Origin: Phoronis australis
Taxonomy: Eukaryota; Animalia; Phoronida
Length of the DNA stretch: 64,000 nucleotides
Reading direction: 5' to 3'
Assembly (NCBI GenBank): GCA_002633005.1
Contig: NMRA01000387.1
Location: forward strand, 173,017 to 237,016
Of this stretch, positions 1 to 62,409 are shown piece after piece. The position numbers and the translations under genes were made by a program. Every line of letters begins with the position of its first letter. The first letter of the stretch is position 1. The notes under the pieces were generated by a model that was not told the DNA's origin, ran no database searches, and saw nothing but the letters and a program-made list of their open reading frames with translations.

Positions 1-426
1 CATATGTATATATTTCAATAAAGAAAATAATATAAAATAATACACATGAACATCAGAGAGCTGCTGTGTGCCATCTTCTCTTAAAAAAACTTTTTATCGA
101 CACCACTTACCATTGGTCTCAATTTGCTCCTTGGTTCGATTAAAAGTGACTTCTGCATGGTGGCAGAACTGAGATTAGTGTGCCAACTACTGGTTCTACC
201 CAAGCTGAGAGATTTTCCAGTTTGAGTAATGAGCAAGCTGAGACCTATATTGCGTACAACAGTTCAAAGGTCGTTTTTTGTTGAAAGTTGGGTTTATAGC
301 AGTTATGTCAAAGAGGTCCTTCATCAAGGATTATCTTTTAAGCTGTAAGTGAGTGATTAAGGCTATTGTGGAGTTTTCATTTGTTTCGTTTTGGTGTGGT
401 ATATAATGTGCAAGCACTTCTTTCAG

Positions 427-518
427 CGATGAATCAAAGAACATGTCTATTTACGATGAGCTGGCCTACGAAGACTCCAGCGCTATCGGTGAAATTGATG
501 ATGGTGTCGATATAACAG
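427..518 (+). CDS. MAPK8IP3: JIP3/4 exon (DESKNMSIYDELAYEDSSAIGEIDDGVDIT-G)
   Basis: tttcag acceptor, G|gtactg donor; resembles the JIP4 SLFEELSS..IGDVDEGADLLG segment. Confidence 0.9.
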
Positions 519-1129
519 GTACTGGGGGGTGGGCTGTCAAAACTCTTTCATTGCCTTTTCGTTAAATTTTCAGCTTTGAACAAGCTTCAAGGTGAGATTG
601 AGAGCATATCCTTGTCAGATATACAGGTTAGACGCCATAGGTTTTTATATGTCGTATTTTTGTGTTTATGATTGAGAGCGTCATCCTGCTGCGTTGAAGG
701 AGAGGAGATTTGATTTCCCAATGGTATAAATTTTACAATAAATCAACTACCATTACCACAGCCTATCTTTGAAGTAACACATGCGGTAATTCTCCACTTG
801 TTTCGCACAAAATAAATTAAAATCATTTTGCTGATAGTCAGGGTGTGCCAAATATAAAGACTTTGTAGTTGACATTTGTGTGTAATCAAATAAGTAACCA
901 AGCATTGCTAACTGGCTGTGTGTGAATGTAACAGAACGCCACCTGTGGGTCACCAGAATGAAGTGGGTATGCTAAATGAGTGTAGAATTACTGTACATTC
1001 ACTAATGGCACGGAGTCATATCTTTGAAGTAACCAAAATTTAAATGTTTAATACTGGGTGTCAGACATGCCGTTTTTCTTTTACCTTTGAACACTGTGTT
1101 TAGAGTTCTAACAAAATGTGATGTTACAG

Positions 1130-1162
1130 GGCGTCTGTGCACTCCTGGCGACTATTCATCTG
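1130..1162 (+). CDS. MAPK8IP3: JIP3/4 33-nt phase-1 microexon (GRLCTPGDYSS)
   Basis: Branch-like ttctaac, ttacag acceptor, TG|gtaatg donor, frame-preserving; PG[DE]Y motif as recalled in arthropod Syd at this position. Confidence 0.6.
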
Positions 1163-2832
1163 GTAATGACCTTGTAACTGTTGTAGACACATCTTGGTTT
1201 ACGCATCACCAATTTGTTTTGTCCTAGCTTTCGATATTTTTTTCATTTTGCTATATATGCAGCTCTCTGCATGATCTGTAGTGTCCATCAAAACCACTAT
1301 TTTGATCCTTTTTTCCCGAAGCCCTTCTCTTGGACACTATGAAATTCACTGCTTTTGATAAATTTGTCTGAAGTTTATGTATTTTCTTTTAGCATTCGCC
1401 TTGTATGATGCTATGTTTTTGTGTAGTACTTCTTGTAATTAACATTAATTGATTCGTCATCTCACATGTTAATATTCAAAAGTTACATCCAGCTTTCATA
1501 AGTTTCTCTAATTCTTACTGGTTCTTCATTCTGAGTGACTGTTTAGTTAGTGTCTTAGTGTTCACATGTTTCAATGCATGAACTAACACTTTTTGGGTGA
1601 ATACATCACATTAGATGTCCTGCCGAAAATTGGTCCTAAGACACCATTATATTAAAGGAATGTTTCACGTATTTCTGCTTTCCAAGGCAAAGCTCCTGGC
1701 AATACCCATTGACAAGGCATTTTGTCATCAGCTGATTGATGTATTTAACTCATGCCTGAATGCGTAAGATGATTGGTCTATGTCAGTCATTTGATTGTGG
1801 CAAAGACTTACCATGTGATGTGTGTTACCTCTCTTATTTATTCTTTAATGAGGCATTGGACTCCGTTTGGCTTACCGAAAGTTTTTTGTTGCAACTAGAT
1901 CGTGTGGGAAATGTTTGACAAAGGTTTTTTTTCAACAACTCGGAGAAAAATTATTCTTGATGCAAATAGCCATTAGGGGGAGCTGGGCTGTATGAACACA
2001 CGGGCGGTTTTGCTGATTGATTTGCTGTGTAGTAAGCAATGCGGGAATTACCTTCATTAAATAAAATCTGAGAACATATTACGTAACCATGTAAGATATT
2101 TGTATCACACTCATTTCGGTTTTTATGGAACTATAAAGCCATAAAAAAGGCTGGCTTATCAACTGAATACATTGTTACTGCTTTTCAATATTTGCCAGAA
2201 GCTATTCGTTTGACTGTGACTTGTTAGTTGTCGAAATTATCTTTGCCCACCGCAAGTGACCTCATGGTGTCAACGAACTCCGAGGCTGGGAAGTTTCACT
2301 GTGTCCGTTATCTTGACTCCAAGCATTTACATTCAACCCCATGGTCTAATCTCTGAATTCAGACTCAACTTAGGATTCGGACTAAAAAGTTAACCAATCA
2401 GACTGCATGAGGTGAATAGACATTTGTAAGTTCACTCGAAGGGTGCTTTGGAATTTGTCAATTTTGTGTCGAGTTTTGAGTGCTGAGATTAGACCCCAGG
2501 CACTGATAAGTGATCTGGTTGCATGGTAATACCTCACCGTCCTCTATCATTGTCAAGGACTTCTAATATTGGTGTGTGTGTAGTTACAGTACTGAAAATG
2601 AACATGGGAAATTGTCAAAGAAGTGATGCGTATGTTAATAAAAACAACAACGGATTTAAACCGGCTTGTCATACCGCGTACCTTCTGTGAAGACAAGGAA
2701 ATGAAATTTCCTTTATATCCACATTGTGTCCTAAACTGATCAGTAGTTTGTATTTTTGGTGCGCAAAATGGACTCTAATGCCTATCTTGCCCTTAACGCA
2801 TGGTTGATGTTGTCTTTCCTATGTTTTCCCAG

Positions 2833-2859
2833 CTGTCGACAGCGACACAGACTCTCATG
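2833..2859 (+). CDS. MAPK8IP3: JIP3/4 27-nt phase-1 microexon (AVDSDTDSH)
   Basis: ctctaat branch site, strong pyrimidine tract ending ttttcccag, ATG|gtacgc donor, frame-preserving. Confidence 0.6.
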
Positions 2860-4251
2860 GTACGCATCTTCATTATCGTAACTTCTATAATAATTTCTTT
2901 TGTTTAAATAACTGATACCGTGTGATGTGTGATAAACATTCTTCATTTGACAAACAATGTGGCAAGCAAATGGAACCTAGCTGTTAAAAAATTTGGCAGC
3001 AAGTAAAAATTTTATGAATTTGTAGCGCTGTCAATAGTAACTAAAAAGTGAAGAATGTTGCCATATATCAAGTCATTCACTTGAGACCATTGTTCATCTT
3101 GTCAACCATTGACCATTCTACGTTTTTTCAAGCATTGTAAGCACTTAGCTAAGTTTTGATGAACCAAAATTATCACTACAGTAACCCACACCAAAAGTAA
3201 TCAGAAAAATTACCCAGAATTCTCTTTTATTGTGACAGCTGAGTATAAGCGAAATTCAGTGTCAGTTGAGAGTAGCTGATTCTGAATAGTCGTTACCCGG
3301 GAAACAGGATTCTGTCTGATTACTTTTGGTGTGTACTTACGTTTTTACATTTTTTGGAACTTTCCATTCTTTCCTTCTGCACCCTCCATCCAACACGCGC
3401 TGTCACTTCTCAAATGCTTGCTGCATAAAGGTTCTTTGTACTAAAAAATTTGCCATTTTTGTCGCGAAAATGAAGACAAAACACTGGCTATTGTCCATAT
3501 ATAAATTTGTTGGAGTTGAGGCAGACTATGATTGATGGCGTCATATTTGGACCCCCCTTGTTTCTAGACTGTGGACAAATTTGTCATCAGTTCACTGTTT
3601 CACCATCTTGCTGGCACACAGCACGAAACTGACAAAACAGAGAGTGAAGGCGATCTGATGCCTTTCGTGATGTGTCAGACGTGTGCTAGACACTGTGTTG
3701 CATGAAGCTGACAGTGCATAGTAGGTGAATATTCAATGAGGGAAATGTGGTTAAAGCGATTAGCATCATTCAAAAAGTGTCATAAATAACTTTTGATTTG
3801 AATTGCTGGCTTGCTTATTGTTATTTAATTGATATCAAATTAATCCTTACCTAGATTAGAACTGATGTCTGGGGACTGTGATCTGGGGACTGATTTCTGG
3901 ACTTTGGGTGAATAGATGGTTGTTATTGCTTGGGATCTGATACAGTGATCTGATGTCCCTTCTAATTTGTGTAATGGGCAAGTTGGTTAATTTAAGTTTT
4001 TTGTTTAAGTAAATGAGCTTAGTAGCTTAAACTTTGTAATCAGATTAAGTGTGACATGTGGGCTCAATTAAGTGCAGAAATACTGTTAAGATTAAGGAGG
4101 GCTGTGAAACAATGAACTGGTGAAAAAAAATCACTAACAATTTAATGTTTCCTGTAATTTCCAAGTAAAAAGTAATCCATGTTAATTTTGGAGACTTTGT
4201 CCTGGGGTTGCTGTTCACTCTAATTCTTTATCCATCGTACCCTGCAGTGTG

Positions 4252-4664
4252 NNNNNNNNNNNNNNNNNNNNNNNNNNNNNNNNNNNNNNNNNNNNNNNNN
4301 NNNNNNNNNNNNNNNNNNNNNNNNNNNNNNNNNNNNNNNNNNNNNNNNNNNNNNNNNNNNNNNNNNNNNNNNNNNNNNNNNNNNNNNNNNNNNNNNNNNN
4401 NNNNNNNNNNNNNNNNNNNNNNNNNNNNNNNNNNNNNNNNNNNNNNNNNNNNNNNNNNNNNNNNNNNNNNNNNNNNNNNNNNNNNNNNNNNNNNNNNNNN
4501 NNNNNNNNNNNNNNNNNNNNNNNNNNNNNNNNNNNNNNNNNNNNNNNNNNNNNNNNNNNNNNNNNNNNNNNNNNNNNNNNNNNNNNNNNNNNNNNNNNNN
4601 NNNNNNNNNNNNNNNNNNNNNNNNNNNNNNNNNNNNNNNNNNNNNNNNNNNNNNNNNNNNNNNN
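4252..4664. other. Assembly gap (N run)
   Basis: 413 consecutive N. Confidence 1.
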
Positions 4665-4854
4665 AAAACTTTCATTTGGTATGTTTTTGAAAATGTCAAT
4701 AATTATAAATGAACCATGTTTGTTTATCACCTTAAAGTTTGTGAACTTAAAGATTGTAATTTGTGTTCCATTTTCCGCCAATCTTCAGTATGCACTAAAT
4801 GTGGATTGTATACAATTTGCTCATAAAACATTCTCTTTGTTTGCTTCGCTGCAG

Positions 4855-4872
4855 TGAGCGATTCATTCTTTG
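4855..4872 (+). CDS. MAPK8IP3: JIP3 18-nt microexon (VSDSFF)
   Basis: ttctctttgtttgcttcgctgcag acceptor, TTG|gtaaga donor; matches vertebrate JIP3 VRDDFF immediately before GMGKEV. Confidence 0.85.
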
Positions 4873-5520
4873 GTAAGATCCATGTTGTGAACGCATGCTT
4901 TCATTTTGTGCATGAATACGCAGCAATTTATGTGGCTGTATCGCATGCTTCCGTGTAGTAGACAATAGGTTAGCAATTAATGCTTTGGCTTGGAGGGTAT
5001 GCCAAATGTTGTGACTTTTGTTTATAATAATTTGATGGCAAAGATTTTGTATTTAAGGATTTTGAGGTTTACTTTCTTTTGATTTGTTGTGCGAAATTTT
5101 TCATTGATTTATCTGATCTTTATTCATTCTCAATTCAGCCACTGTATTGCTCATCCCGTGGTAGTTTAAAACTTTGTGACAAATAGCCATTACCATTGTG
5201 CTAAGAAATTATATTTTTACGAAATATGAACCAGTTAAGAACACTACTTTGTTGACTAGCTCGATCCATCAGTACAGTCAACAGCTAAATCTTTTGTGTT
5301 TTTAACCAAGTTGTATGTAAGAAAAGCTATTGCTAAATAATTCTAAATGCATTGAATTTTAAGGCTTTTGACATCAGAAAGGATATTCGGATTTTTAATC
5401 AAAGTTGTTGAACAAAAATTGAATTTGCTTATTCCTTTACTTAATGTGTAAAAAGTATTTTCTTTGGCAAACCCTCTTTGCATTATCATGATCCTTGTAG
5501 AAAATAAGGCAATATTCACT

Positions 5521-5604
5521 TACAGGGGCCCCTTATTTTGAGGACCAGTTTGATGCCTGTTAATTAATGGAAAAACCTAGTTCTCAAAATGCGGGGCGCC
5601 TGTA
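5521..5604. mobile_element. Short TA-flanked MITE
   Basis: tacaggggcccc..ttttgag / ctcaaaat..ggggcgcctgta inverted ends; related sequence near 63272-63335. Confidence 0.6.
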
Positions 5605-6791
5605 ACTGACTATTACTGAAAATAATGCTGTAAATAACCGCATGGGTGACAGCACAGAATTATTCCTTAAAGAGAACGGCCGCTTTGCTTACTCTTGCTT
5701 ACTATAGATGAAGAGGGCATAGTAACATAGTTCTTTAATACTTCATGATTATCTACACTTAGTCATCTAGGTGCACAACTTTCTTATAGTAATAACTATT
5801 TTTTTCTGCTGTGTAAAATGTGCAAGGTTTCGTAGCTTATTCGGAATTATTTTTACGAGTGTTGTTTAATAAATTCTCTCTGTAGTAGTTAAAGTTTCTT
5901 TGCTTTGAGGCTTTTTCTTCTTTTTGTTTTATTGCAAGTGAAGGTACAATGAGGACTTTTGTCAATAGACTTCGTTTCTTCTTGCTTGACTTGATTAAGT
6001 ATGGTGATGGTTTTTGTTCGTGATAACCAGATGTTGGCAATATTTTGTGTTTGTAATTATATTCATTGTAATTTTGCAATGCGCAGTTTTTGGTATTCAG
6101 TAGATCAATGTTTTTAATTACCTTAATGCTGAAAAGTTTTTATCCCTGGATACTTTTTTTCAAAACATGGCAAGTCTTGGTCGTTCTGGTTTAACGATTG
6201 GCTTGACTCCAGGTGGTGCCGTACCATGTGTGGATTTAATAGAGCTTTAAATCTGGAGTGCATTCCGTAGATACAAGACATTGACTTGCATCTGCGTTGA
6301 GAAATCTTGGCTTATGGAACGGAAACAATTCAATCCCATGATGCAACATTCCAACCTCACCGACCAATAACTTATCAGTGGCTGCCAGTTTGCTTGGTGG
6401 ATAGGTTGCTAAGCTTGCGAGGATACTTGCAAAGCACTCGCTTTTCGCACGCGTGATTTTGCGAGGTTTTTTTATGATCTCGCTTTTCTCACAAGGAACT
6501 TGTTCTACGGAATGCTACCCTGGTGGGCTATGGGTGGATGTGGGGTTGGTAGTTTTAGTAGAAGACTTGTCAATATTTCTTCAAAAAACAAAGATAGACA
6601 TCATGACAAAATGGTCTTTCAGTTCTGCGGATTTTGAAATTTCAATGCAGTATTCTCCTCTCTCACACTCGTGGTTCCATTTCTACACCATTTGACATGC
6701 TGCTGGAAAATGCAAATGAAAAACTTTAATTTGTTCGAATTCTTTGTTGTGAATGTTTTAATGAATTGTATTGATATTCTGTCATTTACAG

Positions 6792-6849
6792 GAATGGGTA
6801 AAGAAGTTGAAAACCTGATCGCTGAAAATACAGAACTCATTGAAACCAA
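6792..6849 (+). CDS. MAPK8IP3: JIP3/4 exon (GMGKEVENLIAENTELIETK), start of LZII
   Basis: ttacag acceptor, AA|gtaagc donor. Confidence 0.95.
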
Positions 6850-7327
6850 GTAAGCTGGGTGCTTCAGTTATGAAGGACTCTAACTTTGGAAAGTCATATC
6901 TCAGAAATGGTTGATCAGATTCAAATTAAATTTTCAGGTGCCATACTCATAGGTGGATTTGGGGGGCAAGGGGCGTGGACCCCCTTTGGCTGCCGTAAAA
7001 AATAAAACAGCCAGAGCATGAGGAAATATTGAGTTCATTAACTAACCCCAGTAATTAACATGCGGTTGAGATAAGATTTAACAAGTTTCAGTTTGTGTGT
7101 GCGGGGTGGGTCAGTGCCGTCGCAATCGGCTTCCCCTTTTTTTCTTTTTTTAGTCGTGAATAACTTCAGAAGTTCGAGACCCCCACCTATATTTAGGCTG
7201 GGTGCACCCACGCAATCTTGCTTCATGCGATTCCCTGAGACGCAATGTTGGGGCCCACCCCTATGATATCCTATGCCTTGATCTCCATATTGCAGTTAGG
7301 AATTGTTTTCATGATCCACTTTTGTAT

Positions 7328-7736
7328 GAGGGGCTATGAAACATTAGACTTCTATTATGATTTTTCATGAAAAGTCAAAAGTGGCTTGAAACAAACTGTA
7401 ATAACATTTTTGAGATTTCATCTTGGACATTAATCACAAACAAATTGTTGTCATGCTACTGGTACTGTCTTAATGCTATAGACGTACCCTTCTTTTAGCC
7501 AAATTTTGCTAAAAATTTGATCATATATGACATGGTCATGTATGACGTTTGACAGTATAGACCCAGAGTTTGACAACTCTGTGCCTCCCTCCAATGCTAA
7601 AAAAAGTAAAGTTGAAAGTCAAATTTTGCAGGACTTCTACTTATAGAAAATGTGTACTTTTACTGAGTTAAAATCTAGTTTTTTAGGTATTTGGCCAAAT
7701 ACGCATACTTGTTGATGAGGTCCTATGTAACCTTAA
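7328..7736. repeat. Dispersed non-autonomous DNA-transposon-like repeat
   Basis: Colinear diverged copy at 38360-38748 (gaggggctat...gtccta..acctt ends). Confidence 0.6.
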
Positions 7737-8759
7737 ATAAGCTTGATGAAATCTGTTATAAAACAAAATTTATTTATAGCTAGTGGTTTGTTATTCAGTG
7801 TAATCATTGCCTGACATTAATTAGCTTGTATTAATTAGCAACTGTGGGTTTGTGTACATTTATTGTTACCTCATGACATCCAATCTAGGCAGTTATATAT
7901 AGCCATTGATCACCGTAACCTTCCTTCTTCTGATCAAGATTTGTGGTGCTAATTGTACCTATCCTCCAATAATGAAATGTTTTGGAGAAATTGAATTAAA
8001 ATTTGTATATGTCACGCTATGAATTGAAGGTGGTTTAAAGATGGTGGCAGTGAATATTCATGTCAAAATATGGTAAATGGCATTCATTAGAACTCTTGCT
8101 TGGGAGACACAATTTCATTAAGATAACGATCAGTCGTATTGCATTACATAGCCATTTCAATCAAGTTAACCGATATTTTCATTAGTGTTCAACATATACC
8201 ACTATCATAAGAGGACTCCAACCGTGAAAGCCACTATGCTTCAGTTGAGATCAGAATTGATGCAACCGTTTTAGGAAACAGCAATCTTGCCATGCAGCAG
8301 GGACATCTATTGCCAGTCTTTTAGCTGAGCACCGTTTGTCTGGCTGGATCATGTGGCATGCACTTGTTGCTGTGGGGAGAGAATAACCTTTGACCTATTG
8401 CAGAATTTGTTACAGCCTCTCAAACCAAAATCAACATGGGGAAGAAACAACATTTGACCCATTGCAGAATTTGTTCTACCTCTCAAACCACAAGCAAAAC
8501 AGTAATGGTCCATTTACGGAATTAACTAGCTCAATGAAGGTCTGATATCATTGGATGATGCCCTCTAGTGGTCAGTTGGCATAGCTAGCTGTGAATAGAT
8601 TGCCCCAGCTTTGCTGCTATCCTATCCAAGGCTCACTGCACACAATATAAAAAGCAAAGACTTAATGGGTCCTGTAATGGAGCACAAACCCGGCCATTAA
8701 ACGCAGCTCCTATTTCCTGCTTTACTTTAATAATTTTTTTTTTCATTTCTTTCCTCCAG

Positions 8760-8967
8760 AAATGCGCTGAATATAGTGAAGGACGACCTGATTGCTCAGT
8801 TAGACGAGCTGAACAGCGAACAAGAACTTCTAAAAGAGCAAGTGCAATCAATGGAGACGGTGAAATCGAGACTGAAACTGCGTGTCAGCGAATTGGAGGA
8901 TGAGCTGAAGAAAACGAAGGAAGAGCTTAGTCAAAAGGGGGCGCAGAACAATCCTGGCGATGAGGAG
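8760..8967 (+). CDS. MAPK8IP3: JIP3/4 exon, LZII coiled coil (NALNIVKDDLIAQLDEL...GDEE)
   Basis: ctccag acceptor, GAG|gtataa donor; heptad pattern. Confidence 0.95.
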
Positions 8968-9174
8968 GTATAATATGTTACATAAATAAGGATGTAGGGC
9001 GAAATCTTGCAATGCACGCCATACGAATTTTCTCGGTTAGGTGAACGTACAAATGTCTCTTACTTGCCATTCAGTATGTCAAAAATTAATGACACTTTGC
9101 AGAAGTTATATTTTTAACTAGAACTTGTGCGTGTTTACTAAAGGAGTGCCTCTTGACTTCTTATTTCTGTTTAG

Positions 9175-9362
9175 GACGACGTGCCAGTGTCGATGCGTAA
9201 GCGTTTCACTCGTGTTGAGATGGCACGCGTGCTTATGGAGCGCAACCAGTACAAAGAACGGCTGATGGAACTCCAAGAAGCGGTCCGGTGGACGGAGATG
9301 ATCCGTGCCTCCAAAGAACATCCGGATCTGCAGCCAAAGAAAAAGTCCAGCATCTGGAACTT
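9175..9362 (+). CDS. MAPK8IP3: JIP3/4 exon, RH2 domain
   Basis: [40 protein letters not shown]; tttag acceptor, TT|gtgagt donor. Confidence 0.97.
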
Positions 9363-10169
9363 GTGAGTATTTAAGAGGTCCTATGACATGTCATCTTTGG
9401 TAATTCTTTACATATTCAGTGCACAATATAGCCGTCAAGTGGAATTTTAGTTGTCAAATTTCCCAATGAAAGTAAAGATTAAGAAAACGTTAGTCTATTA
9501 TGAGATTAGTTTGGTTTATACTGTGTACGGGTGAGAAACAACATGACTGCTGGACCCAAAATAGGACCACTGGTCCTCCAAATCGGACTGACTCACCACA
9601 AACAGGTCCTAGGGGGATCAAATGGTTCTTACGGTCCAGATAATGGGACTAATGCACCTAAAAAACATGACCGCCTGACAAAATGTTGCCGATGCCTGTG
9701 TGTGATACTGGTTATGACGATACTTTATCCACGCTTGATCTGTCACATGCTCATGACAGTGTATGTCTAATTGGCTTAAGCCTGTATTACTGGGCATTTC
9801 AGTGGATATATTAACTGAAAAGCTGTTATATACAATAAAGATGAGATTTTAATAAGCACACATGTAAATTATGTACCTGCCTTACAAAAAAATATCTAAA
9901 ACACTGGAATCATTTAAAACAAGGAGCTTGATGCCGGGCATTGTCGTTGCCTAAATGAGTGTATACACACAAAAATAACTTACTGACTTCTAATATCACG
10001 AGTCAAAGATAGTCTGGAAAAGAAACAAATTTTCAAAATGTAATAGTCTGTAGTTACATGTTGTACATAAATTGTTCATGTCGGACACGAACAGTTATGA
10101 AGTATATTACAGAGCGGAACGATTGTGCATGGTTCTTTCAATATTGTTTATATGTCATCACAATTGAGT

Positions 10170-17244: not shown

Positions 17245-17418
17245 CTTTGCAAATCTGTTCACTTCATCTAACAAACCTTCAAAGCGCCCTCTACCATCTG
17301 CCACGGTGAGGTACAAAGCTCCAACGACCGAGGTTCATCCACTTGGAGACCCCAACAAAAAGAAACGGGAGAAATACGCAGGCAAATCAAAGGCTTATGA
17401 TTTTATGGAGGATGATGG
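17245..17418 (+). CDS. MAPK8IP3: JIP3/4 exon (FANLFTSS...FMEDDG)
   Basis: tttcag acceptor, GG|gtaatg donor; completes the IWNFFANLF motif. Confidence 0.9.
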
Positions 17419-25010: not shown

Positions 25011-25259
25011 GTGCAAAAGAGAACGACTTTCCTGTTGACGAGGAATTCTTAAACATTGGTGAGAGCACACAATCTGAGTCATCCAGTCAGAGTCAGATGA
25101 GTAAGAACTCAAGCTCGGCCAGTCTGACCAGTGAGAACAGTGGAAGTACCGATGCAACTGGGATAGGGGGCGTTACCTTTGTGCAGTGTGCAACAGGAAG
25201 TAGTCGAGCTAGTAATGCAGCAACACCTGTTGGCTCACCAGCGACACCAACGGTGAAAG
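25011..25259 (+). CDS. MAPK8IP3: JIP3/4 exon (GAKENDFP...TPTVK), Ser/Thr-rich linker
   Basis: caatag acceptor, AAG|gtatgg donor. Confidence 0.9.
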
Positions 25260-25639
25260 GTATGGGAAGTGTGTAATCGTATAAAAACAAGTCTTCTACA
25301 GTAGCTGCTGTAAACTCTTGTGTATTGCATGTAAACTCATTCTGTATTGACAGTCATTAATTTTGTTTAATCCGTGTTCTAGAAAATTGGGGTTCTGTTT
25401 TGTTCAGTTTATCTAATAATTAAACTTTTATCCGTAGCTTGGTTTGTAGCGTAGTTGTTACATTTTGCTTATTTGCTGCGATTAGTGAAATGGGAAAAAT
25501 GACAATTTTTGCCAATTGTATTCAGCTGATTGTAGTATTTGGCATGCTGCTTTCATATGGTTACTTAATTGCCGATTTCATGCTGCCAATTATGTTAACA
25601 TTGCTACATTCATACTGTTCCACTCCTGTTAATACATTC

Positions 25640-25835
25640 ATATTGCTGCTTTTGCATTATTTGCTACTTTCATATTGCTACTTTCATATTGCTACTTTCA
25701 CATTGGCTACTTTCATATTGCTATGTTCATATCGCTACGTTCATATTGCTACTTTCATGTTGCTCCGTTCATATTACTTCTTACATATTGCTCCATTCAT
25801 ATTGCTGCTTCCATATTCCTACTTCCATATTGCTA
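25640..25835. repeat. 15-bp minisatellite (catattgctactttc); second copy ~26900-27101
   Basis: Tandem degenerate units. Confidence 0.85.
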
Positions 25836-25837
25836 AG

Positions 25838-25915
25838 AGCTGAGTCCTGAAGCCAGAACCAGTATTACACAAGTAACTGAGGCCGTACAGAATATGACAG
25901 CTGATACTCTCCGAG
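25838..25915 (+). CDS. MAPK8IP3: JIP3/4 candidate 78-nt phase-1 exon (ELSPEARTSITQVTEAVQNMTADTLR); duplicate at 27104-27181
   Basis: ctaag acceptor, GAG|gtaaca donor, open frame; the only difference between copies is synonymous (CTC/CTT). Confidence 0.65.
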
Positions 25916-28353
25916 GTAACAAGCATTAGGTTATAATTTGCACGTGATAGGAAATGCGTGAGAGCAAGTGTTATCCTTATTGCAGTGTATCTGTCCATTT
26001 AGTGCACGGAATAGCCACGTCCCCAATTCATACTCTCCTCTTTTGCGGAGATAGAGAACGCACTGTTTGGATGACTGACTTTAATTTATTGTTTGGTAGA
26101 TAGGCAACTAAGACACTTTTGAGGTGGACATTAATAGAAATGGTTTACCACACCCTGCTGAACTTGTTGGATTCGTTGGTGTCAACAATGAAGACAAGCT
26201 GTACTGCCCTTGACAAAAGATACATTTACGTATTTTTCATTAGGCTCAGTATTCTTATTAAAGCTGTACTTTGCCCTGTTTAGCTGGCTGAAACAAAAAT
26301 CGAATTGGGCCTTTAATTCTCATAAAATAGGTCTAAAATTCCTTGCCATGATAGGGCTTTTTTTCAATGATAAAGAATAACATAAAATTACAGGCCTTCA
26401 TATACTGGTTATGAGATGCAGTAGAAAANAGTAATGCAGCAACACCTGTTGGCTCACCAGCAACACCAACGGTGAAAGGTATGGATAAAGTGTGGAATCG
26501 TATAAAAACAAGTCTTCTACAGTAGCTGCTGTAAACTCTTGTGTATTGCATGTAAACTCATTCTGTATTGACAGTCATTTATACTCTAGCTCATTCATCA
26601 TTAATTTTGTTTAATCTGTGTTCTAGAAAATTGGGGTTCTGTTTTGTTCAGTTTACCTAATAATTAAACTTTTATCCGTAGCTTGGTTTGTAGCGTAGTT
26701 GTTACATTTTGCTTATTTGCTGCGATTAGTAAAATGGGAAAAATGACAATTTTTGCCAATTGTATTCAGCTGATTGTATTCAGCTGATTGCAGTATTTGG
26801 CATGCTGCTTTCATATGGTTACTTAATTGCTAATTTCATGCTGCCAATTATGTCAACATTGCTACATTCATACTGTTACACTCCTGTTAATACATTGCTG
26901 CTTTTACATTATTTGCTACTTTCATATTGCTACTTTCATATTGCTACTTTCACATTTGCTACTTTCATATTGCCATGTTCATATTGCTACATTCATATTG
27001 CTACTTTCATGTTGCTCCGTTCATATTACTTCTTTCATATTGCTCCATTCGTATTGCTACTTCCATATTGCTACTTCCATATTGCTACTTCCATATTGCT
27101 AAGAGCTGAGTCCTGAAGCCAGAACCAGTATTACACAAGTAACTGAGGCCGTACAGAATATGACAGCTGATACTCTTCGAGGTAACAAGCATTAGGTTAT
27201 AATTTGCACGTGCTAGGAAATACATGAGAGCAAGTGTTATCCTTATTGCAGTGTATCTGTCCATTTAGTGCACGGAATAGCCATGTCCCCAATTCATACT
27301 CTCCTCTTTTGCGGAGATAGAGAACGCACTGTTTGGATGACTGACTTTAATTTATTGTTTGGTAGATAGGCAACTAAGACACTTTTGAGGTGGACATTAA
27401 TAGAAATGGTTTACCACACCCTGCTGAACTTGTTGGATTCGTTGGTGTCAATAATCAAGATAAGCTGTACTGCACTTAGCTGGACAAAGGATACATTTAC
27501 GTATTTGTCATTAGGCTCAGTATTCTTATTAAAGCTGTACTTTGCCCTGTTTAGCTGGCTGAAACAAAAATCGAATTGGGCCTTTAATTCTCATAAAATA
27601 GGTCTAAAATTCCTTGCCATGATAGGGCTTGTTTTCAATGATAAAGAATAACATAAAATTACAGACCTTCAATACTGGTTATGAGATGCAGTAGAAAATC
27701 GTTGGTTTTATTAGTTGGCCAATCCTATAATTCTCAAATGGCATACAAAGATAAGCCAGTCACATGACCGATGACACTCAATGAGTGGCCATTTCCTGTG
27801 AGTTCAGTAGATCAGCTGTTGATTTTGACTCTAGTTGAAAACTTGAAATATATTTAAAGTGACAGCTTAACATTGCACAATTCAGCTTTATTTACAGTAC
27901 TGTACAAGCAGTGTAGCATTGTGATATTTTAAGAAGTGTGTAACTTGTCGCTGTTAGATCTGTTCATAGTTAGCTCAGAACCTAGCTACAAACCAAACCA
28001 AAACTCTGTGAAACAGATAAAAACTCAAGTCTCGTTTTGTAACTTGACAAAAACTTTAGATCCTCGTGGATTCTTTCCATGAGCCACTACTCTTGTACCA
28101 TAAGCATGTCCCTGTTTTTACTCTAAAAGGCACTTGCTAATTTCAACCTATCCATAACATGCTCAAAGTTTTTGTAAATTTCTCTAAACCCAACTTTTAA
28201 AAGGCTAGTGGTAACATTTTTATTTCTTACTTTATGTCCTTTCATCCATGCATCTGTTTTCTTGTCCTTCTGTCAGTCTGTTTGTCTGTCTGTGTTTTTG
28301 TCTGTTATTAATGTCTGTCTGTCTGTGTGTCTCACGGTTTGACTTTACTTTAG

Positions 28354-29930: not shown

Positions 29931-30900
29931 CCGTATTCACCCTAATAAGCGCCCATGCCACTATAAGCGTCCCCTACGCATTTTCAGACTTTGCTAAAAT
30001 AAGCGCCCAGCCCATGAACGTGACTGCGTATACATGCGAAAAATGCCTTACCTGCAGTTCTAAAATTCTATAGTAACGTCTTCAATTTATCAATAATATC
30101 TGACAGTCCTGACAGGCCTTTCAGAACAGACGCAGCTTACTTATCAACAGGATTGTATCGTATCTTTCCTGTACAGATTTTCTCCCTCAACAGGAATCTA
30201 GACTTTTTTGTACACGTGAAAACTGCAAATCGAAGACTAATAAAAAAACTTGACCAGTGTTAAAAGCCCATGGCAAGGAAGCGCACACTACATACATGTA
30301 GGCCTGCTACTGGGGCGAGTGAACTCTGACGACACGCACGTGCTTGCTTGCTCGGCACACACCTGCAGACGAACTTCAAAACAAATGTCACGTGACAACA
30401 ACATGTGTGTTTGTGGGCTGTTCATCCATATTTTTCTCGTGTTGCTGGGTGCGATCTAGCGCAGATTTGGACTTAATCGGCAGTTAATCCCGACTCCACT
30501 GGAAATTAAAAATCTTAGGGACGCTATTTAGAAAACTTTAGGAGGATTTCAGGTAATTTGTTGAGTCGAAACTGTATTTTTATTCAAGAATTCAAGTTGC
30601 CCTAGTGACGATCGCGAGGCAGCGACGCATCAGTTGGCGAGTTTTCACCCAGGGATTTCCGCACAATTTTCTAAAAAAGGATCTAATTTAACAATGAAGT
30701 TTGATAGCAATGCACCACAGTTGTGTGGAAAGTCTATCATAGGTTATAGATATGTCGCAGAGTGTAAATTTGATGAATCTTCGCTTCCAATTTCACCCGT
30801 TTTGGAGAGCGGATTTCAACCGCCTTTGGCTACAATGAGCGCCCCCCCTCCCAAAGCGAGTTTTTCTAAGCTCCCTGGACGCTTATTAGGGCGAATACGG
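29931..30900. mobile_element. Non-autonomous Tc1/mariner-type element (~970 bp)
   Basis: TIRs CCGTATTCACCCTAATAAGCG / CGCTTATTAGGGCGAATACGG, flanked by TA on both sides; partial second copy 31812-32658. Confidence 0.85.
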
Positions 30901-33131
30901 TATATCAATTTATCATTGGTTTTGTGGAAATGCAGTTCTTGCTGTTTTTGCATGAAGTATCCCTTGATGTGGGGTAGTATCCCCTTATGTGGGGTAGTAT
31001 CCCCTTATGTGGGGTAGTATCGCCTAAAATGGGCCTTAGCTTACTACTATTGCTCAATATTATATAATTCTCTTATCCTGTTCCTCCCCTTTTCCTATTT
31101 CTTGGGGCATTTTGCTGCAGTATGCAAATGCTGTACACAGCTAGCTCTCCTTTACAGTCTCACGCAGCACTAGTAAGGTCAAGCCAAAGAGGCAAACTCC
31201 AATGTGAATAAATCAAGTTAGTGACGGTAAATCTTTCAGTTGTAGTAATCAGCCAGCTTCATTCGGTCCGTGATGTAACTAGGAGTTTCAACTCATTGTT
31301 TTCAAAAACCAAAACAAAGGATTCCATCCCTAAGGGCTGTTCCAGCAAAATCTGTATGGGAGGGGGGGGAAGGCACTTTTATTTCGTACCCACCGCCCAT
31401 ATTTTTCATTTATTTCTCCAACCCATGACCCATAATTTTTTAATTATTTTTAATAGGTTAAAATATAAAATCCAACACTTGCAAACAAATTGCCTCCAGG
31501 AGGACCTGTTAAGAACTTAGATGATTGACAGACAAGAACTAGTTGTCTTGTCCAATATTGTCAAAAATTAAAGTAGCCTGTGAACAATACTTTTGGCAGC
31601 CACCAGGTGTCTCTGTTCACCATGTGTCTATAATTTCAATGAACATTTTTTCAATTATAAGGATCTATGAATCTCAAACTGTCTCCACAAACTCTTTTAT
31701 ACTTCTATGTCAAGTGAATATTGGAACTTGTTTATCTTACTCCTCATACTTTTTATTTAAAAATCATCAATTTTCTTATATGTGTTAACACCAGTTTAGT
31801 GTTGCATAACNTGCGAAAAATGCTTCACCTGCAGTTCTAAAATTCTACAGTAATGTCTTCAATTTATCAATAATATCTGAATGTCCTGACAGGCCTTTCA
31901 GAACAGACACAGCGTACTTATCAACAGGATTGTATCGTATCTTTCCTGTACAGATTTTCTCCCTCAACAGACTTCTTTGTACACGTGAAAACCGCAAATC
32001 GAAGTCTAATAAAAAAACTTGGCCAGTGTTAAAGGCCCGTGGCCAGGAAGCGCGCGCTACATACATGTAGGCCTGCTACTGGGGCGAGTGAACTCTTGAT
32101 GACACGCACGTGCTTGCTTACTCGGCACACACCTGCAGACGAACTTCAAAACAAATGTCACGTGACAACAACATGTGTGTTTGTGGGCTGTTCATCCATA
32201 TTTTTCTCGTGTTGCGGGGTGCGGTCTAGCGCAGATTTGGACTTAATCGGCAGTTAATCCCGACACCACAGGAACTTAAAAATCTTAGGGACGCTATTCG
32301 GAAAACTTAAGGAGGATTTCAGGTAATTTGTTGAGTCGAAACTGTATTTTTATTCAAGAATTCAAGTTGCCCTAGCGACAATCGCGAGGCAGCAATGCAT
32401 CAGTCGGCGAGTTTTTGCCCAGGGATTTCCGCACCATTTTCTAAACAAGGATATATATTTACAATTAAGTTTGATAGCAATGCACCACAGTTTTGTGGAA
32501 AGTCTATCGTAGGTTATAGATATGTCGCAGAGCGTAAATTTGATGAATCTTCACCCGTTTTGGACAGCGGATTTCAACCGCCTTTGGCTACAATAAGCGC
32601 CCCCCCTCCCAAAACGAGTTTTTCTAAGCGCCCTGGACGCTTATTAGGGCGAATACGGTATGTCAATTTATCATTGGTTTTGTGGAAAGGCAGTTCTTGC
32701 TGTTTTTGCATGAAGTATCCCCTGATGTGGGGTAGTATCCCCTTATGTGGGGTAGTATCCCCTTATGTGGGGTAGTATCCCCTTATGTGGGGTAGTATCC
32801 CCTTATGTGGGGTAGTATCGCCTAAAATGGGCCTTAGCTTACAACTATTGCTCAATATTATATAATTCTCTTATCCTGTTCCTCCCCTTTTCCTATTTCT
32901 TGGGGCATTTTGCTGCAGTATGCAAATGCTGTACACAGCTAGCTCTCCTTTAAAGTCTCACGCAGCACTAGTAAGGTCAAGCTAAAGAGGCAAACTCCAA
33001 TGTGAATAAATCAAGTTAGCGATGGTAAATCTTTCAGTTGTAGTAATCAGCCAGCTTCATTCGGTCCATGATGTAATTAGGAGTTTCAACTCATTGTTTT
33101 CAAAAACCAAAACAAAGGATTCCATCCCTAA
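30035..33131. repeat. ~1.3 kb direct duplication (30035-31333 / 31812-33131); second copy begins after single N31811
   Basis: Near-identical copies; probable allelic haplotypes. Confidence 0.88.
30961..31020. repeat. 20-bp VNTR (ccccttatgtggggtagtat) x3; x5 at 32719-32818
   Basis: Head-to-tail units, no spacers. Confidence 0.9.
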
Positions 33132-60992: not shown

Positions 60993-62409
60993 ATGGCGAC
61001 TTCCGAAAACAATGTGGTGTTCGTAACCTCCAAAGAAGCCGATGCCAACACCGTGAGTGTCGACATCGAATCGCCCGCCAAAAACAGAATACGAGGCACT
61101 CCAGTCAGTGGTGCGACTGCTAAACCGCGAAGATTTCCCATCTTGTTTGAGAGAGCTGCAAAAAGCTGGTACAACCCTAGATTTAACTCTACCCTTCTCG
61201 AGAACCAAGTTGGAGAAAGTTTCTTCCCCCAGACTCGGACGAGATTCCAGTTTGGCTTGGGATACATCATCTTTTGCTGTGTTGTTTGGACCATCTTCTT
61301 TTCAATTCAAGGCGAGGACCATTGGACCAGTTATATTATAGGAACACTATCTTTATTAGCCGTTTCTGTTTTGATTCTTATATTTACGTTCACGAGGTTT
61401 TATGAGTCCTATTTTGTACCGGTTTCACTTGGCTTGTCCATAATATTGTGTGCCCTGGTCTGTGGACAGTTTGGTCTACAGCCGTCTAATTTGTCCACAG
61501 TTGGCGCATTCACGGGCGCCATTGAAATAATTTTCCTGATGTATACTGTGTTCCCTATGCCGTTATACTCTTGTGTTTTAATTGGAGTCATATTTTCAAT
61601 TGTGTTTGAAGTATTGTGCGCGGTTTTGACTGACATGACGAGTGGTCACTTTATCGTTGGAAAAATCATGCTCCATATCTGTATTCATCTTATTGGCATT
61701 CACACGTTCATCATGTCTCAAGTACGTAAACGAAGTACATTCTGGAAGGTTGGACAATCAATCATTGCTCGCAGAGATTTACAAGTTGAAAAGCAACTCA
61801 AAGAAAAAAGCATCCACTCACTTATGCCTCCCAAAGTGGCGCGTGAAGTCATTGGTGCACGTGACACCTCCAAAAGTGCTGATGGAAAAATTGCCTTTCG
61901 TCCATTTAACATGCACGACCAGGACAATGTTAGTATATTATTTGCCGATATTGTCGGTTTCACAAAAATGAGCTCCAATAAGACGGCGGAACATCTTGTT
62001 GATTTACTCAATGATTTATTTGGCCGGTTCGACAAACTCTGTGTGGAGTGTGGTTGCGAGAAAATCAGCACTCTGGGTGACTGTTACTACTGCGTCTCTG
62101 GTTGTCCTGAGGCACGTGATGACCATGCAGTGTGTTGTATTGAGATGGGTCTGGGAATGATCAAGGCGATTAAAGAGTTTGACGAGGACAATAATGAACA
62201 AGTAAACATGAGAGTGGGTGTTCACACTGGCAAGGTGCTCTGTGGTATTGTGGGTACACGCCGGTTCAAGTTTGACGTTTTCTCCAATGATGTTGATCTA
62301 GCCAATTATATGGAGTCATCTGGGAAGCCAGGTCGTGTGCACATCTCAGAGATGACCTATGAGTTTGTCAAGGACGAGTACGACGTTGAAAAGGGATCAG
62401 AAGTTGACG
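60993..62409 (+). CDS. ADCY9: Adenylate cyclase type 9, first coding exon (N-terminus, M1 transmembrane helices, C1a); 3'-partial
   Basis: LFERAAKSWYNPRFNS, IHSLMPPKVA, AFRPFNM, VSILFADIVGFTKMSSNKTA, CEKISTLGDCYYCVSGCPE, NMRVGVHTG, FKFDVFSNDV are AC9-type motifs; CAAGATGG start; donor GAC G|gtaggt (alternative AG|gtgagc at 62413). Confidence 0.95.

What the first reader, a model, noticed from the sequence alone, without database searches (positions are those of the whole stretch)
1130..4872. Array of phase-1 microexons (33, 27, 18 nt) just upstream of the JIP3 LZII exon
Seen: three tiny frame-preserving exons with proper splice signals lie between the GVDIT-G and G-MGKEV exons, reading GRLCTPGDYSS / AVDSDTDSH / VSDSFF. 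None is visible in the ORF track. Known: vertebrate MAPK8IP3 carries alternatively spliced GEFS/VRDDFF inserts at this position, next to LZII (kinesin light chain/ARF6 binding). Inference: the cassette is combinatorial (up to 8 isoforms) and tunes motor-adaptor binding; the acidic 27-nt exon may be lineage-specific.
Basis: partly seen in the sequence, partly recalled or inferred. Interest (0 to 1): 0.7.

Follow-up and report, generated by a model that had tools for sequence, protein, structure and literature searches.

The report
Ancient three-microexon cassette in JIP3
Three tiny optional exons in this animal's gene for JIP3, an adaptor that hooks cargo to dynein and kinesin motors, are spliced into RNA and match inserts found from flies and molluscs to sea stars and vertebrates, where they likely tune the linker between the adaptor's dynactin anchor and its cargo-binding coil.

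Summary
All three exons are real: A 1130-1162 (33 nt), B 2833-2859 (27 nt), C 4855-4872 (18 nt), phase 1, in a lophotrochozoan JIP3/syd gene. RNA reads join upstream exon to B (11), B to C (12), B past C (4), C to the LZII exon (20); 4 reads lie only on A. No skip-all joint was listed, so eight isoforms are not shown here.

B is not lineage-specific. Homologous proteins carry the same ordered slots: motif A, acidic spacer B, motif C. All three occur in 27 of 83 genera, seven phyla, including a sea star and an acorn worm. C equals the known vertebrate 18-nt microexon (13/18 nt identical to mouse) and probably the fly syd microexon; vertebrate GEFS looks like a shrunken A. A 2026 preprint calls syd microexons convergent; these data favour common descent from the protostome-deuterostome ancestor.

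The cassette lies between the dynactin-binding Spindly motif and LZII, 16 residues before the kinesin light chain site. Inferred, untested: it lengthens that linker from 18 to at most 44 residues and adds two short motifs. Verdict: new member of a known kind, with a new evolutionary reading.

The parts
427..518 (+). Upstream JIP3 exon; encodes the Spindly-type motif (IYDEL) and the 18-residue base linker; phase-1 donor
   Evidence: motif consensus and human LYHEL; alignment to homologs
1130..1162 (+). Exon A, 33 nt (GRLCTPGDYSS), homolog of the conserved PG[DE][YF]AS slot; weak acceptor, CTAAC branch-point-like site about 22 nt upstream
   Evidence: 4 reads confined to it in X3; profile p 1e-6, best of 74 candidates; splice scores; motif
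2833..2859 (+). Exon B, 27 nt (AVDSDTDSH), acidic spacer slot; default exon in the runs read
   Evidence: Joints 518>2833 (11 reads), 2859>4855 (12), 2859>6792 (4); acidic slot in 43 of 83 genera
4252..4664 (.). Assembly gap of 413 N inside the B-C intron
4855..4872 (+). Exon C, 18 nt (VSDSFF), homolog of the vertebrate Mapk8ip3 18-nt microexon; TGC close to the acceptor, 65-nt AG-free zone
   Evidence: Joints 2859>4855 (12), 4872>6792 (20), skipped in 4; 13/18 nt to mouse, 12/18 to zebrafish
4893..4947 (+). Three GCATG elements at +21, +38, +71 after exon C (Rbfox core motif, label recalled); the only 100-nt stretch of 1-53000 with three
6792..6849 (+). First LZII exon (GMGKEVENL...)
   Evidence: (joint 6849>8760, 47 reads)
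8760..8967 (+). Second LZII exon, holding most of the KLC/ARF6 surface
   Evidence: (PF16471 on the hits)

Best explanation
The three exons are spliced, frame-preserving cassette exons of a lophotrochozoan JIP3/syd gene that sit between the Spindly motif and leucine zipper II, and they are likely inherited from a three-slot cassette of the protostome-deuterostome ancestor that would tune how JIP3 couples dynactin to cargo. Shown: the exons, their splicing, their position, and same-order slots A-B-C in homologs. Inferred, origin (about 0.8): common descent, with vertebrates keeping a 4-residue A and a 6-residue C and losing B. Inferred, regulation (about 0.6): C is a neural, eMIC- and Rbfox-type exon. 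Inferred, mechanism (about 0.4): inclusion lengthens the flexible linker from 18 residues to 27 (B), 33 (B+C) or 44 (A+B+C), which would change the reach between the dynactin pointed end and ARF6- or KLC-bound LZII; B would act as an acidic spacer, while A and C would add short binding motifs, since their sequence is conserved and B's is not.
For: Splicing. Slots by pattern match in 83 named genera: A 50, B 43, C 59, all three in 27 genera of 7 phyla, among them Patiria and Ptychodera; 0 of 2 cnidarian genera (sequences). A profile trained on protostomes only recognises deuterostome slots: C human p 2.5e-5, sea star 3e-5, three controls 0.2-1.0; A sea urchin VDPGEFS 2e-6, sea star 5e-5, human GEFS 2e-4. 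Turtle, musk deer, desman and orangutan models show none, GEFS, VRDDFF or both. Position: LYHEL 382-386 binds dynactin p25, and the Spindly-to-ARF6 distance is about 7.5 nm (PMC7615804, passages). Insert-free linker is 18 residues in 14 of 18 genera where it could be measured, cnidarians to apes, and in the window. AlphaFold model of an oyster A+B+C isoform: cassette is coil, LZII helix starts at the Met after it, confidence reaches 50 only at the A core and the last three residues of C. Function elsewhere: zebrafish 18-nt exon rises from PSI 0 to 0.92 in development and was deleted (PMC12626420, passages and supplement rows); fly syd 18-nt exon is eMIC-sensitive (PMC8797185 supplement) and its knockout gives late hyperactivity and fewer offspring (bioRxiv 2026.09.05.749416, section 11).
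Against: No binding or motility data exist here. Exon status in other species is read from protein isoform models, not from their DNA or reads, and such models can over-combine exons. Slot B shares only acidity and position, so its homology is the weakest. The register for GEFS was chosen by eye after a first, mis-registered test gave p 0.1-0.5. No slot was seen in lamprey, two tunicates or four fish models, so the vertebrate link has a gap. The base linker is not fixed: 15, 15, 17 and 21 in four genera. The cryo-EM study models LZII from residue 406, which would place human GEFS/VRDDFF inside the coil, unlike the oyster model. Zebrafish microexon mutants in general had weak phenotypes. Tissues of the RNA runs are unknown. 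A and B lack a TGC near the acceptor, and A has a weak acceptor. The preprint infers convergent gains in this gene.
Confidence: 0.6

Rival explanations
1. Convergent origin: the phase-1 intron before LZII is a hotspot in which unrelated microexons arose separately in arthropods, spiralians and deuterostomes.
For: [quoted passage not shown] Lengths differ (A 4-12 residues, C 6-9) and lamprey and tunicate models show no slot.
Against: Same order A-B-C and matching motifs in seven phyla; protostome-trained profiles score deuterostome slots at p 2e-6 to 5e-5, and human GEFS at 2e-4; sea urchin VDPGEFS bridges protostome VHPGEFAS and vertebrate GEFS; C has the same 18 nt and phase as mouse with 13/18 identity.
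Confidence: 0.15
2. Motif-only function: length is irrelevant; A and C are docking sites for a partner (pointed-end subunits, a cargo adaptor, or JIP3's own RH1 domain), or C caps and stabilises the start of the LZII dimer.
For: A and C are conserved in sequence across phyla while B varies in length from 6 to over 20 residues; local rise in model confidence at A core and C end; cryo-EM model includes these residues at the start of the long coil.
Against: No partner is known; KLC2 and ARF6 complexes were solved with constructs that start after C; the base linker length is itself mostly conserved. Not exclusive of the best explanation.
Confidence: 0.35
3. Direct tuning of KLC or ARF6 affinity on LZII (first reader; also suggested by the preprint).
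For: C abuts LZII; KLC and ARF6 sites overlap and compete there; fly knockout has phenotypes.
Against: KLC2 contacts begin 16 residues after the junction and binding occurs without the cassette.
Confidence: 0.15
4. Chance splice-like sequence or splicing noise.
For: 87 chance candidates exist in the intron and two to nine outrank each exon by splice score; support for A is 4 reads in 1 of 3 raw-read runs.
Against: 47 junction reads for B and C; A, B and C match slots in other phyla.
Confidence: 0.02

Closest known systems
Vertebrate MAPK8IP3/JIP3 18-nt microexon (zebrafish vRDDFFg, mouse chr17:24,908,411-428; PMC12626420 supplement) and the GEFS insert
   Same: Same junction, 18 nt, same phase, 13/18 nt identical to mouse; optional in isoform models
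   Different: Vertebrate models show two slots (4 and 6 residues) and no acidic B; here A is 11 residues and B is the default exon in the runs read
Drosophila syd 18-nt microexon (DmeEX0009788, eMIC-sensitive; knockout in bioRxiv 2026.09.05.749416)
   Same: 18 nt, immediately adjacent to LZII; D. sechellia syd has ANDNYF at slot C and a full slot A. That this peptide is the knocked-out exon is inferred from length and position
   Different: The preprint text treats it as conserved only to hoverfly and convergent elsewhere, and names no three-slot cassette; the fly model seen lacks B
Isoform models of JIP3/4-like proteins in Lingula, Mytilus, Panulirus, Priapulus, Patiria, Ptychodera
   Same: Same A-B-C order; all 8 combinations modelled in Panulirus and Mytilus
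   Different: Database annotations only; window A is one residue shorter than the usual 12
C. elegans unc-16/JIP3 84-nt cassette exon (UNC-75, EXC-7, PRP-40; PMC8378409, passages)
   Same: Neuron-type-specific splicing of the same gene
   Different: 84 nt; its place in the protein was not checked, so no claim of homology

Membership tests
JIP3/JIP4/syd/UNC-16 | LZII, RH2 and C-terminal WD40-type region in order | tested here: met
   18 tblastn segments in order against Lingula JIP3/4; Pfam domains on hits; PDB JIP3 match via homolog
JIP3/JIP4/syd/UNC-16 | N-terminal RH1-LZI domain | not testable with these tools
   Lies upstream of the window; no genome is held
JIP3/JIP4/syd/UNC-16 | Spindly motif before LZII | tested here: met
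   IYDEL aligns to human LYHEL at the same 18-residue spacing; Ile replaces the first Leu, as in many spiralians
Neural (eMIC/SRRM4-type) microexon | Length 27 nt or less, frame-preserving | tested here: met
   B (27) and C (18) meet it; A (33) exceeds the 27-nt definition (definition in the abstract listed)
Neural (eMIC/SRRM4-type) microexon | Alternative inclusion | tested here: met
   C included in 12 and 20 reads, skipped in 4; A spliced in X3, bypassed by 11 reads; skipping of B not shown
Neural (eMIC/SRRM4-type) microexon | UGC near the acceptor, long AG-free zone, pyrimidine tract (features as) | tested here: inconclusive
   C has TGC and a 65-nt zone; B has an 85-nt zone and no TGC; A has neither. 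Six of the 18 other exons scanned also have a TGC there
Neural (eMIC/SRRM4-type) microexon | Neural-specific inclusion and eMIC dependence | not testable with these tools
   Tissue of runs X1-X3 is not given
Ortholog of the vertebrate Mapk8ip3 18-nt exon (slot C) | Same protein junction, length, phase and similar sequence | tested here: met
Ortholog of the vertebrate Mapk8ip3 18-nt exon (slot C) | Continuous presence in intermediate lineages at the DNA level | tested here: inconclusive
   Present in hemichordate and echinoderm proteins, absent from the lamprey and tunicate models seen; amphioxus not retrieved; no genomic DNA of relatives available

The most novel reading that the evidence does not exclude
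The JIP3 Spindly-to-LZII linker carries a three-slot splicing cassette that dates to the protostome-deuterostome ancestor. The fly syd microexon, the vertebrate VRDDFF exon and this exon C are one exon; vertebrate GEFS is the remnant of slot A. What has been read as a hotspot of convergence is deep homology, and the cassette is a splice-set ruler plus motif switch for how close dynein-dynactin sits to ARF6 cargo membranes.
Probability: 0.4. Interest if true: 0.68.

Novelty: new member of a known kind. Interest (0 to 1): 0.5.

Why it matters
Few neural microexons are thought to be shared between flies and vertebrates, and a 2026 preprint uses syd as its example of repeated independent gain. Spiralian, priapulid, echinoderm and hemichordate sequences fill the gap and point to one ancient cassette, which would caution against calling short exons convergent from sparse sampling. 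It also joins two knockouts (fly, zebrafish) to one structural site, the linker between JIP3's dynactin anchor and its cargo coil, and so gives a direct isoform test in a dynein adaptor mutated in human intellectual disability. The locus itself is an ordinary member of that cassette.

Tried and rejected
No genome was held, so no upstream exons or paralogs could be searched. No indexed RNA holder was listed; three raw-read runs and one contig set came by species label. X4 contigs did not span the cassette. Splice-site score alone does not single out the exons; the top-scoring candidate 574-591 had no listed joint and was set aside. The first slot-A profile test was mis-registered by one column and gave p 0.1-0.5; it was redone. 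A careful tree did not finish in two runs; placement rests on the quick tree. A complex prediction for the idea that slot C binds the RH1 domain was not available, so that idea is untested. The monomer model did not support helix extension by C. Paper searches: JIP3 + Spindly motif + microexon 0 papers; microexon + MAPK8IP3 3 papers, 2 listed; 1 paper; nothing relevant in the listings, 30 of 391 listed, only 1 of the 30 with the word microexon. No description of a three-slot cassette was seen, but subscription journals, VastDB and the preprint's figure 5j and supplements were not visible and may hold one. Earlier findings of this scan: none.

Full report
Observation. The window holds the 3' two thirds of a JIP3/JIP4/syd gene on the + strand, from exon 427-518 to a stop at about 53176. 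Between exon 427-518 and the first LZII exon 6792-6849 lie three AG..GT exons of 33, 27 and 18 nt, all phase 1 and frame-open: A 1130-1162, B 2833-2859, C 4855-4872. Signals alone are not enough: 87 such candidates exist in this intron and the three rank 10, 3 and 5 by a matrix from the gene's own sites.

RNA. Three raw-read runs of the same species label (about 18-19% of each read) and one contig set were laid on 250-9400. Listed GT..AG joints, as X1/X2/X3: 518>2833 5/5/1, 2859>4855 6/5/1, 2859>6792 3/1/0, 4872>6792 9/8/3, 6849>8760 25/15/7, 8967>9175 7/12/18. A joint is listed only with 3 reads from 2 starts in one run; none was listed for skip-all, upstream-to-C or any joint of A. On 1086-1205, all 4 reads laid from X3 cover only exon A plus the few bases shared with neighbouring exon ends and continue as unlike sequence, with no depth on the intron; X1 and X2 gave 4 and 1 reads running over the ends, two of the X1 reads stopping at 1162; X4 gave none. 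So B is the default exon in these samples, C is optional (roughly 75-85% included on 12 and 20 against 4 reads) and A is used in at least one sample, perhaps by few molecules. At least three isoforms are shown, not eight. Tissues are unknown.

Host. A quick tree of 26 proteins puts the gene among lophotrochozoans (SH-aLRT 95) and outside the 9 molluscs sampled (98); the careful tree did not finish.

Conservation. Three word-index searches, one profile search and three cluster look-ups gave 475 proteins. In them the junction carries up to three inserts in fixed order: A with a PG[DE][YF]AS core, B acidic and variable in length, C of the form V-x-D-x-F-F. By pattern match in 83 named genera, A was called in 50, B in 43, C in 59, and all three in 27 genera of Arthropoda (5 of 18), Mollusca (17 of 28), Brachiopoda, Nemertea, Priapulida (1 of 1 each), Echinodermata (1 of 7) and Hemichordata (1 of 3). 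Vertebrates showed A and C in 6 of 13 genera and never B; tunicates 0 of 2 and cnidarians 0 of 2 showed none. Left out: unnamed proteins, Hydra, Pomphorhynchus, Carettochelys and fragments without the anchor; for turtles only some isoforms were tallied. The sample is whatever the searches returned, and a missing slot in one gene model is weak evidence. All 8 combinations appear among 41 Panulirus and 23 Mytilus models, which may over-combine. In the isoform sets inspected the inserts start with G, V, A, D or E, as a phase-1 exon after a G requires. Profiles from protostomes only give human VRDDFF p 2.5e-5 and sea star C 3e-5, against 0.2-1.0 for three control hexamers; for A, the window 1e-6, sea urchin 2e-6, sea star 5e-5, human GEFS 2e-4, with the register set by eye after a mis-registered first try. 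Exon C matches the mouse and zebrafish 18-nt microexons at 13 and 12 of 18 bases.

Regulation. C has TGC next to its acceptor and a 65-nt AG-free zone, and is followed by three GCATG within 75 nt, the only such cluster in the first 53 kb. GCATG as the Rbfox core is recalled; the eMIC features are from PMC8797185 (one passage), whose table lists the fly syd 18-nt exon as eMIC-sensitive. A and B lack the TGC. Neural inclusion here is inferred, not tested.

Position and mechanism. The upstream exon encodes IYDEL, aligned to human LYHEL, the Spindly motif that binds dynactin p25; with cargo bound, LZII is proposed to leave the pointed end and hold ARF6 about 7.5 nm from this motif (PMC7615804, passages). 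The insert-free linker is 18 residues in the window and in 14 of 18 genera where it could be measured, from Nematostella to Pongo, and 15-21 in the rest. The cassette raises it to 27, 33 or 44. KLC2 contacts mouse residues 433-450 and was crystallised with a construct starting at 417, after the cassette; the KLC and ARF6 sites overlap (PMC6224480, passages). An AlphaFold monomer of oyster P0083 (48-sequence alignment, mean pLDDT 59.7) shows the cassette as coil, the helix starting at Met518, and pLDDT of 50 or more only at 489-495 and from 514. The cryo-EM model starts LZII at human residue 406, which by my numbering includes the inserts, so their structure is unsettled. I commit to this reading: B is a spacer, A and C are short motifs, and together they set the reach and perhaps a contact between dynactin anchor and cargo coil (about 0.4).

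Known work. The zebrafish exon was deleted with mild brain-activity effects (PMC12626420, passages and supplement rows). [quoted passage not shown] I could not see their figure 5j or supplements, so their statement may concern other exons or gains of regulation, and the conflict is not established. Also seen: PMC13499124, PMC12772503, PMC8378409, PMC12287369 (passages only). Nine searches showed no account of a three-slot cassette or of its place in the Spindly linker.

Verdict. Real, expressed and ancient. The locus is a new member of a known kind; the added value is the evidence for deep homology of the fly, vertebrate and spiralian exons and a testable structural context. Interest 0.5.

Noticed in passing
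window 25211-26428 and 26430-27698; 30032-31333 and 31809-33131: Two tandem near-duplicates of about 1.3 kb (92% and 91% identical), each meeting a single N (26429, 31811); probably both haplotypes assembled in series. The first repeats the end of a coding exon.
   Followed up: partly
window 60993-62408 +: Large first coding exon of an adenylate cyclase 9-like gene, same strand, 7.8 kb after JIP3 (E 5e-146 to PDB 7pd4). Human MAPK8IP3 and ADCY9 are both on 16p13.3 (recalled, not checked), a possible old linkage.
   Followed up: partly
window 574-591 +: Best-scoring 18-nt frame-open candidate in the intron, only 55 nt after the upstream donor; no joint listed.
   Followed up: partly
   Followed up: no
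window 6475-6512: About 1,500 reads from an abundant opposite-strand transcript elsewhere match 38 intronic bases at 90-95% and run on unlike; a repeat fragment, not this gene.
   Followed up: no
window 9340-9362 and 17245-17260 +: The JIP3 autoinhibitory helix after RH2 appears conserved and is split by a 7.9-kb intron; not searched for alternative exons.
   Followed up: no
P0161 and cluster members (Lineus); P0219, P0430 (sea stars); P0381 (Lingula): Extra slots beyond A-B-C: a fourth acidic insert before A in Lineus, a 23-residue extension before A in sea stars, an alternative last insert in Lingula.
   Followed up: no
PMC8797185 table S2: Mouse Spag9 has a 12-nt neural microexon (MmuEX0044508), the length of GEFS; whether it is the paralogous slot A was not checked.
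   Followed up: no
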